In this document: positions 5,771 through 10,004 of the stretch, piece by piece
How the letters are laid out: every line of letters begins with the position of its first letter
Position numbering within the stretch: the first letter of the stretch is position 1
Source of the DNA: the human T2T-CHM13v2.0 reference genome, Homo sapiens
Length of the DNA: 64,000 nt
Strand: one strand, 5' to 3'
Assembly: GCF_009914755.1 (NCBI RefSeq)
Contig: NC_060927.1
Translations under genes and position numbers: made by a program
The notes under the pieces: model-generated
Databases searched by the model: none
What the model was told of the DNA's origin: nothing
Seen by the model: the letters and a program-made list of their open reading frames with translations, nothing else

Positions 5771-6943
5771 ATATATATACTCACACACACATATATATAA
5801 TATAGATACATATCTAATATACACACATAAATATATATAAATACTAATTTGGAATAAAGTTGACCAAAAAGGGGAAAGATTTTTACATTGAAAACTATAA
5901 AATATTGCTGAAAGAAATTAAAGAAGACACCAATAAATGGAAAGAAATTCCATGTTATGGATTGAAAGGCTTAATATTTTTAAGATGTTAATACTACCCA
6001 AAGCAATCTACAGATTCAATGCAATGCCTATTAGCATCTCAATGGCTTTTTAAAAAATTTTTGTAGAAATGGAAAAATCTATCCCAAAATTCGTTATCTA
6101 TCCCAAATAACAAAAATAATCTAAAAAAAGAAGAACAAAGTTGGAAATCTCACATTCCTGATTTCAAAACTTACTACAAAGCTATGGTAATTAAAACAGT
6201 GTGGTACTGGCATAAAGACAGACATATAGACCAATTGACTAGAATAGAGAACCCATAAATAAACTCTGGCATATATGATCAAATAATTTGTGACAAGGGC
6301 CAAAACCATTCAGTGGTGAAAGAACATACTTTCAACAAATGACATCATGAAAACTGGATCTCCAGATGCAAAAAAAAGAAAAAGAAAAAGAAAAAGAAGT
6401 TGGATCCTTACCTTATAGCAAATACAAAAATTATCTCACAATGTACCTAAACGTCAGATGTGAAAGGATGAAACTCTTAGAAAACTCTGGTAAAAGCTTC
6501 ACTACATTGGATTTGGCAATGATTTCTTGGATATAACACTAAAGGCAGAAGCAACAAAAGAAAAAATAGACAAACTGGATATCATTATAATTTAAAAATC
6601 CTGTGCATCAAAAGATACTATCATCACTTCCAACAAAAGTGGATTCCATCCACTGTACAGGTTCAGTGAAACAAGATATACACTGAGCCTGACTCCCTGT
6701 GGTTAGCCTGAAAGATGGTGTCATTTTCTTGTGGGCAACAGCTATAAAAGCGCTTCCTGCATTATAACCCAAAATGCTAGAATTTCAAAATAATGATCAC
6801 CTGCAACTCTCAAACAAACAAAACCATTAATGATTTCCAAAACAATGAATAGATAAAATGTGCAGTATTTCTTAGAGGACAAAATAATATTACATTGATT
6901 ATGCTACTTAAATTTTCAATAATCCCTACAATCTGATTTTTGC

Positions 6944-7256
6944 TTTTTTTTTTTTTTTTTTTTTTTTTGAGACGGAGTCTCGCTCTGTCGCCCAGGCCGG
7001 ACTGCGGACTGCAGTGGCACAATCTCGGCTCACTGCAAGCTCCGCTTCCCGGGTTCACGCCATTCTCCTGCCTCAGCCTCCCGAGTAGCTGGGACTACAG
7101 GCGCCCGCCACCGCGCCCGGCTAATTTTTTGTATTTTTAGTAGAGACGGGGTTTCACCTTGTTAGCCAGGATGGTCTCGATCTCCTGACCTCATGATCCA
7201 CCCGCCTCGGCCTCCCAAAGTGCTGGGATTACAGGCGTGAGCCACCGCGCCCGGCC
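6944..7256 (-). mobile_element. AluYb8 (human-specific)
   Basis: Diagnostic 7-bp duplication (ggccggactgcggactgcagtgg) plus the gacctcatgatcc and caccttgttagcc variants; 13-bp TSD gatttttgctttt; 25-nt T tail. Confidence 0.9.
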
Positions 7257-7650
7257 GATTTTTGCTTTTAAGAATTTACATTCTTCTTGAAAGCAGATTT
7301 GAATTCAAAATTTTTATATTATTCAGTCAAACAAATTCTTCCTAGAGAAATAAAAGAAACTGTAATTTTAAGTACTTTTCAGCTACTGAGACAAGATAAA
7401 ATATCCAGAGGATACAAAATATTTTATATGTACTTCCTGCATTTGTAGAGACCCTTGCCCTTCAATACTTGTGAAAGGGTGATTGGGTCAACAGCAAAGA
7501 GTTCTTGAGGTAAATTCTGCAATTTTATACGACATAATTCAAATGTATCCATTTGTCAAAATCAACTCTGCATTTTCAGACAAAATTCAGTTAATGTCAA
7601 ATTGAGGCAAGTGCTAAACCTCGGCAATTTAAAGTTTGAAAAATATTCCC

Positions 7651-7960
7651 AGCCAGATGTGGTAGCTTACATCTGTAATCCCAGCACTTTGGGAGGCCAA
7701 GGCAGGCGGATCACTTGAGGCCAATAGTTCAAGACCAGCCTGGGCAACATAGCGAAATCCCATCTCTACTAAAAATGCAAAAAATTAGCTGGAAGTGATG
7801 GCACACACCAGTAATCCCAGCTACTCGGGAGGCTGAGGCAGGGGAATTGCTTAAATCCAGGAGGTGGAGGTCTCAAAAAAAAAAAAAAAAGAAAGAAAGA
7901 AAGAAGAGAAGAGGAAAAGAAAAAAGAAAAGAAAGGGAAAAGAAAAGAAAGGAAAATAAA
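7651..7960 (+). mobile_element. Alu with a right-arm deletion and a GA-rich tail
   Basis: Alu sequence jumps from ggaggtggagg to tctcaaaa. Confidence 0.8.
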
Positions 7961-8038
7961 AGAATTATACAAACTATGTGACCTTGAAGAAGTTATTTCT
8001 CATTAAACCACAGTTTTAAAAGGTAACAACAGCACAGT

Positions 8039-8773
8039 ACAATAGTCCTCCTTACCTGCATGGCACATGTTCCAAAACCCCCACTGGATGCCTGAGACCA
8101 CAGACAGTACCAGACCCAATTGCTGTCATTTGGAACACGTTTCATTTCATGTCTTCCACCCACAAATTTAATGCCTTTTCCATCTTAGGTAAGCACTTAT
8201 CACATACTGTGGCCATAACTTTTGCAGTCTGAGGTGCAACAGCAAAACTAGCACATATTTCTCTTTCTTTTTTCATGACAAAAATGGATAAAATTCTTAC
8301 TGTGGATCTTAGCAACCTCAGGATACTATTTTTTTTTTGTTTGTTTCCTTATTTAGTTGAGAACGTTCAGCTTTTCATTTAAAGCAAATACTTTACGGCT
8401 TCTCTTTGCCATATCCAAATTGCCAGCCTCACTACTCTTGGACTTTGAGGTGATTACTAAGTAAAATAAGGGTTACTTGAACACAAGCACTGTTGATACT
8501 GCGACAGTCAATCTGATAACCTAGAGGGCTCCAAGTCACTGTCACTAATGGGCGGGTAGCATGGTCAGCGTGGAGATGCTGGACAAAGGGATTGTTCACA
8601 TCCCCAGCGGGATGGAGCAGGATGGCCTAAGATTTCATCACGCTACTTAAAATGGCCTGCATTTAAAACTTATGAATTATTTCTGGAATTTTTTATTAAT
8701 ATTTTCAGACCACAGTTGACCTCAGGTAACAGGGACCATGGAAATTGAAAACAACGGATGAAGGGGAACTATG
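8039..8773. mobile_element. MER44-type (Tigger7-derived) DNA transposon inside a MIR (~7970-8880)
   Basis: Termini caatagtcctccttacc and ggatgaaggggaactatg; MIR halves on either side. Confidence 0.7.
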
Positions 8774-10004
8774 ATATCTGTCTCACAGAATTGCTAGAAA
8801 GGTGAGAAATGTACCCACAGCACTTAGTGTCAGAGTAAATGACATCTAGAAAGGGCTCAATACATACTAGCAATTATTACTTACCTGGATACTTTTCCAT
8901 GACCTTTTGTAAACCATATTGCTTATAAATTGCACTACAGATATCCATTTCATATCCCATTACCTCATACAATTTCAGTTGCTAGTCAAGCCCACATTTA
9001 ATCCTATAATGACAAACAAATATGAAGTTCAGTTTTCTTTAAATAAAATCACATCACAAAAGAAGAATTATTACTAAAACAACTCAGCCTCTGGCAAGAT
9101 ATTTTACAGATTTTCACAGGCTTTTTCCAAGGTAAATTGGTAATTCTTCATCATAAAAGCAGTCACTATAGCAATACTTCAACTGACTCTTGCATGACTG
9201 AAAGAGACCTTGAAAATAAAATAGCAAAATAGCAACAATTAAAAAAAATCCAGCTGCCTATTAATGGTAAAGTTCATGTCTATTTCATGACTACTTCTAC
9301 TCAAATAAATCCTCTGCCTCTGAAATATGACCAATGGTGAAGGAGAAAAAAGGCACTATCAACTGAATGAAAACGCAACTCACAGAATGGGAGAAAATAT
9401 GCACAAATCATGTATCTGATAAAAGATTAATATCCAGAATATATTTTTTAAAATTCCTACAACTCAACAACAAAAACCAAAACACCCAGTTGAAAATGAG
9501 CAAAAGGACTTGAAAAAAATCTCCAAAGACGTACAAATGGCCAATAAACACATGAAAAGATGGTCAACATCTAATGATTAGAGAAATGCAAATCAAAACC
9601 ACAATTAGATACAATTTCACACCAATTAGGATGACTGTTATTTAAAAAAATAATAATAACAACTTTTGGCAAAGATGTGGAGTGATTGCAGCCCTTGTTC
9701 ATTGCTGGTAGGAATGTAAAATGGTGCAGCCACTAGGGAGAACAGTATAGCAGTTCCTCCAAAACTTGAAAATGGAACTACCATATTATTCAACAATTTC
9801 ACCCCTAGGTATATACCTGCTCATGTTCACAGCAGCATTATTTACAATAGCTACAAGGTAGACACAACCCAAGTATCCACTGAGAGATGACTGGATCAAC
9901 AAAATGGGGCATATACATACAAAGGTCTATAATTCAGCCTTAAAAAGGAAGGAAATTCTGACACATGCTACAACAACATGGATGAACCTTAAAAACATTA
10001 TGCT

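What the first reader, a model, noticed from the sequence alone, without database searches (positions are those of the whole stretch)
6610..9361. Intron-retaining DUSP12 copy with a TSD: apparent retrotransposition of an antisense transcript
Seen: DUSP12 exons 2-5 (114, 119, 97 and ~179 nt) WITH introns lie on the minus strand inside an L1 that resumes exactly across the insert. The insert is flanked by aaaagatactatca (6610-6623) and aaaaggcactatca (9348-9361), 12/14 identical. The TSD starts with AAAA on the plus strand, and the right end has AATAAA (9304-9309) and a short A-rich remnant (9340-9351). The left end is cut mid-exon 5 with 2-nt microhomology. Known: TPRT yields this TSD / poly(A) / 5'-truncation geometry in the orientation of the template RNA. 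Inference: the template was a plus-strand RNA, antisense to DUSP12, so DUSP12 introns could not be spliced. What looks like an unprocessed duplicate would then be a fossil of an ancient DUSP12 antisense RNA polyadenylated in intron 1.
Basis: partly seen in the sequence, partly recalled or inferred. Interest (0 to 1): 0.88.

Follow-up and report, generated by a model that had tools for sequence, protein, structure and literature searches.

The report
L1-made copy of antisense DUSP12 RNA
DUSP12P1 is an old, dead, intron-bearing piece of the DUSP12 gene that the LINE-1 machinery most likely pasted into chromosome 3 from an unspliced RNA read off the opposite strand of the gene; it is a tidy example of a known kind of event, not a new mechanism.

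Summary
Window 6622-9338 is the only other copy in this genome of chr1 161095840-161097574. It runs from intron 1 to exon 5 of DUSP12, introns kept, with gene sense on the minus strand. It is 83.7% identical over 1271 aligned bases (K2P 0.187).

It sits inside an old plus-strand L1. The 14-mer AAAAGACACTATCA is single in 8 of 8 other L1 copies and in a full-length L1, but flanks the insert twice, each copy one base off. The implied nick site is TTTT/G on the bottom strand. Also present are a 2-nt microhomology at the left junction, AATAAA 29 nt before the last templated base, and a 9-nt purine-rich tail remnant. All give plus-strand polarity, antisense to DUSP12.

This fits L1-mediated insertion of an unspliced antisense-strand RNA ended at a cryptic poly(A) site, a "class 1 templated sequence insertion" (confidence 0.68).

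Caveats:
- The human source now reads AATAAG at the hexamer.
- The tail is nearly gone.
- No promoter or present-day antisense RNA could be checked.
- Twin priming on a sense pre-mRNA gives the same geometry.
- No outgroup genome was available.

Segmental duplication and sense-strand insertion are rejected. Verdict: new member of a known kind, interest 0.35.

The parts
4651..6623 (+). Host L1, left part (ORF2 3' region), itself interrupted at about 5166-5850 by another insertion
   Evidence: blastn against a full-length L1 (L028): L028 4000-4513 matches window 4651-5165, and L028 4524-5298 matches window 5851-6626
6610..6623 (+). Left copy of the target-site duplication, aaaagatactatca, preceded by tc (nick site TC|AAAA, i.e. 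TTTT/G on the bottom strand)
   Evidence: the 14-mer is single in 8 of 8 other L1 copies
6622..9338 (+). Inserted DNA copied from chr1 161097574 to 161095840. The inferred template RNA is plus-strand, and DUSP12 sense is on the minus strand. It includes three later insertions.
6622..6800 (-). DUSP12 exon 5 remnant, 179 nt, lacking the last 9 nt of the exon; 'ca' at 6622-6623 is microhomology with the TSD
6931..7264 (-). Young Alu inserted after the copy was made, flanked by its own duplication gatttttgctttt; absent from the source. The AluY label is recalled.
   Evidence: (96-100% identical to many genomic copies)
7428..7524 (-). DUSP12 exon 4 remnant, 97 nt; both splice sites lost
7626..7967 (+). 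Older Alu with a long A/G-rich tail, copy-specific. About 118 nt of MIR-like source sequence is missing at this place.
   Evidence: best genomic matches 83-89%
8037..8784 (.). Copy-specific dispersed repeat of about 750 nt with inverted ends (termini CAGTAGTCC...ACTACTG next to TA in sister copies). Tigger/pogo-like by recall; the termini in the window are good to about 5 nt.
   Evidence: (2738 first-look candidates, 40 scored at 72-78%)
8885..9003 (-). DUSP12 exon 3 remnant, 119 nt
9084..9197 (-). DUSP12 exon 2 remnant, 114 nt, with in-frame stops
9198..9338 (-). Last ~141 nt of DUSP12 intron 1; on the plus strand this is the 3' end of the inferred template RNA
9304..9309 (+). AATAAA on the plus strand, ending 29 nt before the last templated base. 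The human source has AATAAG at the same place.
9339..9347 (+). Non-templated purine-rich stretch gaaggagaa, read as the remnant of a poly(A) tail
9348..9361 (+). Right copy of the target-site duplication, aaaaggcactatca
9348..10004 (+). Host L1, right part, resuming where the left part stopped
   Evidence: L028 5282-5979 matches window 9348-10004

Best explanation
DUSP12P1 was made by the LINE-1 machinery (target-primed reverse transcription) from an unspliced RNA transcribed from the strand opposite to DUSP12 on chromosome 1.

Inferred steps:
1. The RNA ran from at least the end of exon 5 back through introns 4 to 1.
2. It was cleaved and polyadenylated at a cryptic site in intron 1, about 29 nt after an AATAAA-like hexamer and just before a U-rich stretch.
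3. L1 endonuclease nicked an old L1 on chromosome 3 at TTTT/G, and the T run primed reverse transcription on the tail.
4. The cDNA stopped, or the RNA began, 9 nt inside exon 5, and was joined through a 2-nt microhomology. Staggered cutting left a 14-nt duplication.
5. DUSP12's splice sites are on the other strand of such an RNA, so its introns could not be removed.
6. The copy then decayed: 5 in-frame stops in the exon read-through, exon 4 splice sites lost. It took up two Alus and, most likely, a DNA-transposon fossil.

Shown: the duplication, the nick-site polarity, the colinear intron-bearing homology, its end points and its uniqueness.
Inferred: that the template was RNA, that it was polyadenylated at that site, and that it was a regular antisense transcript and not noise.
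For: 1. TSD. The 14-nt stretch is single in 8 of 8 other L1 copies and in a full-length L1, and each window copy is 1 nt off AAAAGACACTATCA.
2. Polarity. The plus strand reads TC|AAAA at the left edge of the duplication, so the bottom strand was nicked at TTTT/G. The opposite polarity would need a nick at ATCA/AC.
3. Right end. AATAAA at 9304-9309, 29 nt of templated sequence, then gaaggagaa, then the TSD.
4. The chr1 source continues past the break with TTATTCCTTTTTCCTTTTG, a U-rich stretch where a downstream element of a poly(A) site would lie.
5. Left end. 2-nt microhomology, as in 5'-truncated L1-mediated insertions.
6. All four introns or intron parts are kept and colinear with the source. 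The source-derived parts show no shared flank with chr1 beyond the insert.
7. Only one copy exists in the genome.
8. The kind is documented: class 1 templated sequence insertions have a TSD, polyadenylation 10-30 nt after a cryptic signal, a TTTT/A site, and intronic or intergenic templates (PMC5110952, abstract and passages).
Against: - The present human source has AATAAG, not AATAAA, at the hexamer, and two sequences cannot give the ancestral state.
- AATAAA occurs 4 times in 1287 source-derived plus-strand bases, so one in the 26-position zone has about 0.08 chance probability. Three more upstream would have been read through.
- The tail remnant is 9 nt with 4 G. The source is A-rich right after the break (ACAAAATAA), so internal priming without a true poly(A) tail is possible.
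- No CpG island lies between exon 5 and chr1 161110400, so no promoter for the RNA is evident.
- No paper in the held library names DUSP12P1. One paper holds both 'DUSP12' and 'natural antisense', and it is unrelated.
- No expression data and no outgroup genome could be consulted.
- The DNA-transposon fossil inside the copy looks older (branch 0.133-0.143) than half the copy-source distance (0.093). This is unexplained.
Confidence: 0.68

Rival explanations
1. Twin priming on a sense-strand, unspliced DUSP12 pre-mRNA. The bottom-strand T run primed on the poly(A) tail but made almost no cDNA. The top-strand 3' end (...TATCA) annealed inside exon 5 and copied the RNA towards its 5' end. The result is a fully inverted insert followed only by A's.
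For: It gives the same layout: left TSD, antisense exon 5 first with 2-nt microhomology to the TSD end, then exons 4 to 2, a stop in intron 1, an A-rich remnant and the right TSD. It needs no antisense transcript. The AATAAA would then be the roughly 0.08 coincidence.
Against: No sense-oriented 3' segment of DUSP12 lies between 9338 and the TSD; only 9 nt are unaccounted for. By recall, twin-primed insertions normally keep such a segment. It also needs a polyadenylated RNA with four consecutive introns unspliced. The hexamer and the U-rich stretch in the source would both be coincidences.
Confidence: 0.08
2. Orphan 3' transduction or other repeat-driven read-through. The antisense-strand RNA started in an L1 (or another element's promoter) lying in minus orientation beyond exon 5, read through into DUSP12, ended at the intron 1 site, and was 5'-truncated within the flanking sequence. 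This is still L1-mediated and still antisense-strand RNA, but it is not a DUSP12 antisense gene.
For: Orphan transductions are a documented outcome of L1 activity (search listing only; mechanism recalled). The insert is 5'-truncated, so its true start is unknown. No other promoter is evident.
Against: blastn with a full-length L1 found no minus-strand L1 in chr1 161097584-161116000. The only hit there is an 86-nt plus-strand piece at 161106406-161106490. The same search recovers the old host L1 in the window at 63-67% identity, which serves as a positive control. 0 of 116 open frames of 45 aa or more from 161097584-161110000 hit an L1 domain in Pfam. Limits: fragments made only of an old L1 3' UTR, or a progenitor that was never fixed, would be missed.
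Confidence: 0.1
3. Internal priming on a non-polyadenylated or longer antisense-strand RNA. The T run of the nicked target annealed to the A-rich tract ACAAAATAA in intron 1 and not to a poly(A) tail, so the end point marks no real poly(A) site.
For: The source is A-rich immediately after the break, and the 'tail' is only 9 nt. The source hexamer is AATAAG today.
Against: gaaggagaa matches the source's ACAAAATAA at only 4 of 9 positions, no better than a decayed A run at 5 of 9. The hexamer distance and the U-rich stretch fit a real site.
Confidence: 0.08
4. DNA-level duplication: a segmental duplication, or a chr1 DNA patch captured during break repair, with no RNA intermediate (an ordinary unprocessed pseudogene).
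For: Introns are retained. An L1 of the same region and relative orientation lies about 3 kb from the source segment on chr1.
Against: The flanks are one L1 split by the insert, with a 14-nt duplication that starts at a TTTT/G nick site. Repair patches are described as lacking TSDs (PMC5110952). The chr1 L1 is not adjacent and is uninterrupted. It is 62.8-74.7% identical to the window's L1, against 83.7% for the DUSP12 segment, which is within the range of 7 unrelated L1 copies (68.2-80.8%).
Confidence: 0.04

Closest known systems
Class 1 templated sequence insertions (Onozawa and Aplan; PMC5110952, abstract and passages read)
   Same: A TSD of at least 5 bp, insertion at a TTTT/A-type site, a cryptic AATAAA 10-30 nt before the tail, and a template that is a polyadenylated intronic or intergenic fragment from a distant locus acted on in trans by L1 ORF2p.
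   Different: Those are young polymorphisms with 10-40 A's. This one is fixed and old (K2P 0.187 to its source), with the tail reduced to 9 purines. It spans four exons of a gene in antisense. The orientation of templates relative to genes was not seen in the passages read. The primary 2015 paper is not held.
snoRNA retroposons and the U99 host gene (Weber 2006, PMC1687206, passages read)
   Same: L1-type retroposons with a TSD and a short A/G-rich tail that carry intronic sequence. There a retroposon is used as evidence for a transcription unit antisense to a protein-coding gene (U99HG within C11orf48).
   Different: Those start at a mature snoRNA 5' end and were backed by ESTs. Here there is no snoRNA and no transcript evidence.
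Processed pseudogenes (retrocopies of mRNA)
   Same: The same machinery and the same hallmarks at the junctions (PMC7692494 introduction).
   Different: Processed pseudogenes lack introns and lie in the sense of the parent mRNA. This copy keeps intron 2, intron 3 less about 118 nt, intron 4 and part of intron 1, and its insertion polarity is antisense to the parent.
microRNA retrocopies used to infer parental transcripts (Pan and Lin 2020, PMC7692494, abstract and passages)
   Same: The idea that a retrocopy is a fossil of how a locus was once transcribed and terminated.
   Different: Those are sense copies of non-coding host genes, supported by several independent copies and by reads. This is a single copy.
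Orphan L1 3' transductions
   Same: Unique genomic sequence with a TSD and tail and no L1 body.
   Different: A transduction needs an L1 directly upstream of the template in the same orientation. None was found within 18.4 kb.

Membership tests
L1-mediated insertion of a non-L1 RNA (class 1 templated sequence insertion / retrocopy) | Target-site duplication of at least 5 bp made of recipient sequence | tested here: met
   A 14-nt duplication of L1 sequence, 12 of 14 identical between the two copies; the stretch is single in 8 of 8 other L1 copies and in a full-length L1
L1-mediated insertion of a non-L1 RNA (class 1 templated sequence insertion / retrocopy) | Insertion at an L1 endonuclease site (TTTT/A-like) at the tail-side edge of the TSD | tested here: met
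   The plus strand reads TC|AAAA, so the bottom strand was nicked at TTTT/G: T run perfect, G in place of A after the nick
L1-mediated insertion of a non-L1 RNA (class 1 templated sequence insertion / retrocopy) | Non-templated poly(A) tract next to the 3' TSD | tested here: inconclusive
   Only 9 non-templated bases remain, gaaggagaa (5 A, 4 G). They are compatible with a decayed tail but too short to prove one.
L1-mediated insertion of a non-L1 RNA (class 1 templated sequence insertion / retrocopy) | Polyadenylation signal 10-30 nt upstream of the tail | tested here: inconclusive
   AATAAA in the copy ends 29 nt before the last templated base. The human source has AATAAG. Chance probability is about 0.08.
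L1-mediated insertion of a non-L1 RNA (class 1 templated sequence insertion / retrocopy) | Template from a distant locus, with no homology beyond the TSD | tested here: met
   The source is on chr1 and the insert on chr3. The flanks are L1 only.
Processed pseudogene | Introns of the parent removed | tested here: not met
   Intron 2, most of intron 3 (about 118 nt absent), intron 4 and 141 nt of intron 1 are present and colinear with the source
Unprocessed pseudogene by segmental duplication | Duplicated block shares flanks with the parent locus and shows no retroposition hallmarks | tested here: not met
   Homology stops at the TSD. The flanks are one L1 split by the insert. The chr1 L1 is about 3 kb away, uninterrupted, and 62.8-74.7% identical.
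Orphan L1 3' transduction | Progenitor L1 directly upstream of the template, in the same orientation | tested here: inconclusive
   No minus-strand L1 in chr1 161097584-161116000 by blastn with a full-length L1, and no L1 domains in 116 open frames from 161097584-161110000. Fragments made only of a 3' UTR, or a lost progenitor, cannot be excluded.
Twin-priming inversion | Sense-oriented 3' segment of the same RNA between the inverted segment and the tail | tested here: not met
   Only 9 nt lie between the end of the intron 1 homology and the TSD
Natural antisense transcript of DUSP12 | Direct evidence of a minus-strand chr1 RNA over DUSP12 (ESTs, CAGE, poly(A) sites) | not testable with these tools
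   No expression resource is available here. The literature searches found nothing relevant.

The most novel reading that the evidence does not exclude
DUSP12P1 preserves the 3' part of a genuine antisense transcript of DUSP12, tens of millions of years old, that was expressed in the germline or early embryo. Its poly(A) signal has since decayed in the human source (AATAAA to AATAAG). Intron-bearing 'unprocessed' pseudogenes with TSDs of antisense polarity would then be a minable fossil record of ancient antisense and non-coding transcription. Retrocopy pipelines miss them because they require intron loss.
Probability: 0.4. Interest if true: 0.45.

Novelty: new member of a known kind. Interest (0 to 1): 0.35.

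Why it matters
It changes how one annotated pseudogene should be read. DUSP12P1 keeps its introns, yet it carries the junction marks of LINE-1 insertion, so it is neither a normal processed pseudogene nor a segmental duplicate.

It is also a clean worked example of a wider point. The polarity of the target-site duplication, not the presence of introns, tells which strand of a gene was the template. Such copies can record antisense transcription and cryptic poly(A) sites of the distant past.

The mechanism itself (L1 acting in trans on polyadenylated intronic or intergenic RNA) is already in print. The copy is dead, with stops and lost splice sites. The value is for annotation and method, not for a new biological principle.

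Tried and rejected
- Whole-insert genome search: swamped by Alu hits, so it was split into non-repeat pieces.
- Six-frame Pfam scan of the chr1 upstream region by whole-frame references: rejected by the tool for stop codons. Redone with 116 stop-free frames of 45 aa or more, giving no L1 domain and one sub-threshold chance hit to a conotoxin family.
- Pfam on the repeat at 8037-8784: the first try was rejected for stops, and 3 open frames then gave 0 families. Its Tigger/pogo label therefore rests on recalled termini plus copy number and the TA-flanked ends of sister copies.
- Literature: 'DUSP12P1' gave 0 papers. 'DUSP12' with 'natural antisense' gave 1 paper, about an HSPB8 antisense RNA and unrelated. 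The primary TSIP paper (Onozawa 2015) is not held under its DOI or PMC id. Two searches failed on term format.
- Sense-strand insertion by ordinary target-primed reverse transcription: rejected, because that polarity needs a nick at ATCA/AC and a tail at the left end.
- Segmental duplication: rejected.
- Splicing of the antisense RNA as the cause of the missing ~118 nt at Alu no. 2: considered from the alignment. No AG acceptor is seen at the far boundary, and the gap coincides with the Alu, so it was dropped.
- Dating by the internal repeat gave a conflict and not a bound.
- Alu no. 2's best matches of 83-89% are too selection-biased to date it.
- No primate or mammalian outgroup genome is available, so the empty-site test and the ancestral hexamer could not be done.
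Full report
**What is there**

Searching the genome with the whole insert returned mostly Alu hits. I therefore searched with three non-repeat pieces. Each found exactly one other place, chr1 161095840-161097574 on the opposite strand (one search returned 2 of 2 matches, the window itself and chr1).

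I fetched chr1 161090001-161100000 (L023) and aligned it to the window. The chr1 plus strand carries a dual-specificity phosphatase gene. Two of its open frames hit Pfam DSPc at E 4e-07 and 1.9e-07, both below the gathering score because they are single-exon fragments. The hub's table names the window copy DUSP12P1.

Splice-site context and reading frame give these exons in the source:

| Exon | L023 position | Length |
|---|---|---|
| 2 | 5987-6100 | 114 nt |
| 3 | 6185-6303 | 119 nt |
| 4 | 6687-6783 | 97 nt |
| 5 | 7397-7583 | 187 nt |

The window holds them on the minus strand at 9197-9084, 9003-8885, 7524-7428 and 6800-6622. The introns lie between them, and the last ~141 nt of intron 1 sit at 9198-9338. 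The read-through of the copied exons has 5 in-frame stops, and exon 4 has lost both splice sites.

Over 1271 aligned bases the copy and source are 83.7% identical, K2P 0.187. Exons give 0.208 and introns 0.172, so the copy shows no constraint.

**Later insertions**

Relative to the source, the copy has gained three elements:
- A young Alu at 6931-7264 with its own duplication.
- An older Alu with a long A/G-rich tail at 7626-7967.
- A ~750-nt dispersed repeat at about 8037-8784.

The source has gained its own Alu at about L023 7027-7319, 75 nt from the site of the copy's young Alu and with a different duplication. These events are independent, which fits an old split.

**The junctions**

*Left.* Homology begins at 6622. 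The 'ca' at 6622-6623 is shared between the TSD and the source. The copy lacks the last 9 nt of exon 5, whose donor in the source reads CAG|gtgag. The cut is therefore near the exon's 3' end, not mid-exon.

*Right.* Homology runs to about 9338 (…ccaatggt). Then come 9 non-templated bases, gaaggagaa, and then the TSD.

*The TSD is a real target duplication.* Seven L1 copies pulled in, and the L1 on chr1, all read through the site with one copy of the stretch. Three of the 8 read exactly AAAAGACACTATCA. The left window copy differs from that by C to T, and the right one by A to G.

A full-length L1 fetched for reference (L028) matches window 5851-6626 with its positions 4524-5298, and window 9348-10004 with its positions 5282-5979. 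The host L1 therefore resumes exactly.

**Polarity**

On the plus strand the duplication starts with AAAA and is preceded by TC. The bottom strand was therefore nicked at TTTT/G, with the T run at the 3' end that would prime on a poly(A) tail. That places the tail at the right end and the RNA's sense on the plus strand.

The other polarity would need a nick at ATCA/AC on the plus strand and a tail at the left end, where there is none. That the nick-site consensus is TTTT/A is stated in PMC5110952. That TC|AAAA is a common variant is recalled, not checked.

**The 3' end**

- AATAAA lies at 9304-9309 on the plus strand, ending 29 nt before the last templated base. This is at the upper edge of the usual 10-30 nt.
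- In the source, the sequence just past the break is A-rich (ACAAAATAA) and then U-rich on that strand (TTATTCCTTTTTCCTTTTG). A downstream element would lie there.

Against this:
- The human source reads AATAAG at the hexamer.
- AATAAA occurs 4 times in 1287 source-derived plus-strand bases. The chance of one in the 26-position zone is therefore about 0.08, and three others would have been read through.
- The 'tail' is 9 nt with 4 G.

**Best reading**

This is an L1-mediated insertion of an unspliced antisense-strand RNA that ended at a cryptic poly(A) site in intron 1, either 5'-truncated in exon 5 or starting there. It accounts for every junction feature by the standard process. It also explains, without any special pleading, why four introns survive.

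It belongs to a described kind: class 1 templated sequence insertions, in which L1 ORF2p acts in trans on polyadenylated intronic or intergenic fragments (PMC5110952, abstract and passages). Using a retroposon to argue for a transcription unit antisense to a coding gene also has a precedent, U99HG in C11orf48 (PMC1687206, passages). So does the general idea of retrocopies as records of parental transcripts (PMC7692494, abstract and passages).

**Rivals**

- It is about 3 kb from the source segment, on the far side of exon 1.
- It reads uninterrupted across the site.
- It is 62.8-74.7% identical to the window's L1 flanks, no closer than 7 unrelated copies at 68.2-80.8% and far below the 83.7% of the DUSP12 segment.
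- I take it as coincidence, and the TSD and nick site argue against a DNA route.

(b) *Orphan 3' transduction.*
- blastn with the full-length L1 found no minus-strand L1 in chr1 161097584-161116000. The only hit there is an 86-nt plus-strand piece at 161106406-161106490.
- The same search detects the window's old host L1 at 63-67% identity.
- 0 of 116 open frames of 45 aa or more from 161097584-161110000 hit an L1 domain.
- Old fragments made only of 3' UTR, or an unfixed progenitor, would escape this test.

It reproduces the layout, but it needs a vanishing 3' segment and four unspliced introns in a polyadenylated RNA.

(d) *Internal priming on the A-rich tract*.

**Where the RNA might have started**

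The only CpG island between chr1 161090001 and 161110000 is DUSP12's own promoter at 161093801-161094800, which lies downstream of the antisense RNA's end. The next one is at 161110401-161111000, beside an open frame beginning MGEPAGVAG on the plus strand. I recall this as ATF6. It lies about 12.8 kb upstream in the antisense direction. Divergent transcription from it is a speculation, not a result.

**Age**

- Half the copy-source distance is 0.093 substitutions per site. At a recalled mammalian rate of 2.2e-9 per site per year this is about 42 million years, and more at slower primate rates.
- The older Alu in the copy has best genomic matches of 83-89%. This does not conflict.
- The ~750-nt repeat does conflict. 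Against 14 sister copies (14 of the 40 scored, fetched), its three-point branch is 0.133-0.143. By transversions alone its pairwise distance is 0.097, against 0.058 for copy and source.
- The source shows a TA at the empty site, with an ambiguous 8-nt difference beside it. Insertion into the copy is therefore the simple reading.
- The excess age may come from subfamily structure, from a slower source, or from the element having been in the template and later lost from chr1. I could not decide among these.
- I give the age only as tens of millions of years.

**Verdict**

However, the RNA, its poly(A) site and its status as a regular antisense transcript are inferred.
- The kind is known, this member is undescribed in the searched library, and the copy is dead.

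Noticed in passing
window 8037-8784: The Tigger/pogo-like repeat inside the copy looks older (three-point branch 0.133-0.143) than half the copy-source distance (0.093), yet it is absent from the chr1 source, which keeps a TA at the site. Either the family has subfamilies, or the source evolved much more slowly, or the element was in the template and was later lost from chr1.
   Followed up: partly
window 7626-7967; L023 6462-6579: About 118 nt of MIR-like source sequence is missing from the copy exactly where the older Alu sits. The Alu's tail has grown into a ~95-nt A/G-rich microsatellite.
   Followed up: partly
L023 1231-2770 (chr1 161091231-161092770): An old L1 fragment upstream of the DUSP12 promoter covers the same ORF2 3' region, including the very 14-mer, in the same relative orientation as the host L1 in the window. 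It is judged a coincidence from its 62.8-74.7% identity.
   Followed up: yes
L023 7027-7319 (chr1 161097027-161097319): A source-specific Alu in DUSP12 intron 4, with its own ~18-nt duplication, lies 75 nt from the site where the copy independently took up a young Alu.
   Followed up: partly
L046 401-1000 (chr1 161110401-161111000): A CpG-island-like stretch beside a plus-strand open frame starting MGEPAGVAG (recalled as ATF6). It is the nearest candidate bidirectional promoter upstream of the inferred antisense RNA, about 12.8 kb away.
   Followed up: no
window 5166-5850: The host L1 is interrupted by a further ~685-nt insertion between L1 reference positions 4513 and 4524; most of it is masked as repeat in the hub's table.
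   Followed up: no
window 10588-11608: The annotated processed pseudogene VTI1BP1 lies about 600 nt beyond the last detected host L1 homology, so this short stretch took up at least two L1-mediated gene-derived insertions.
   Followed up: no
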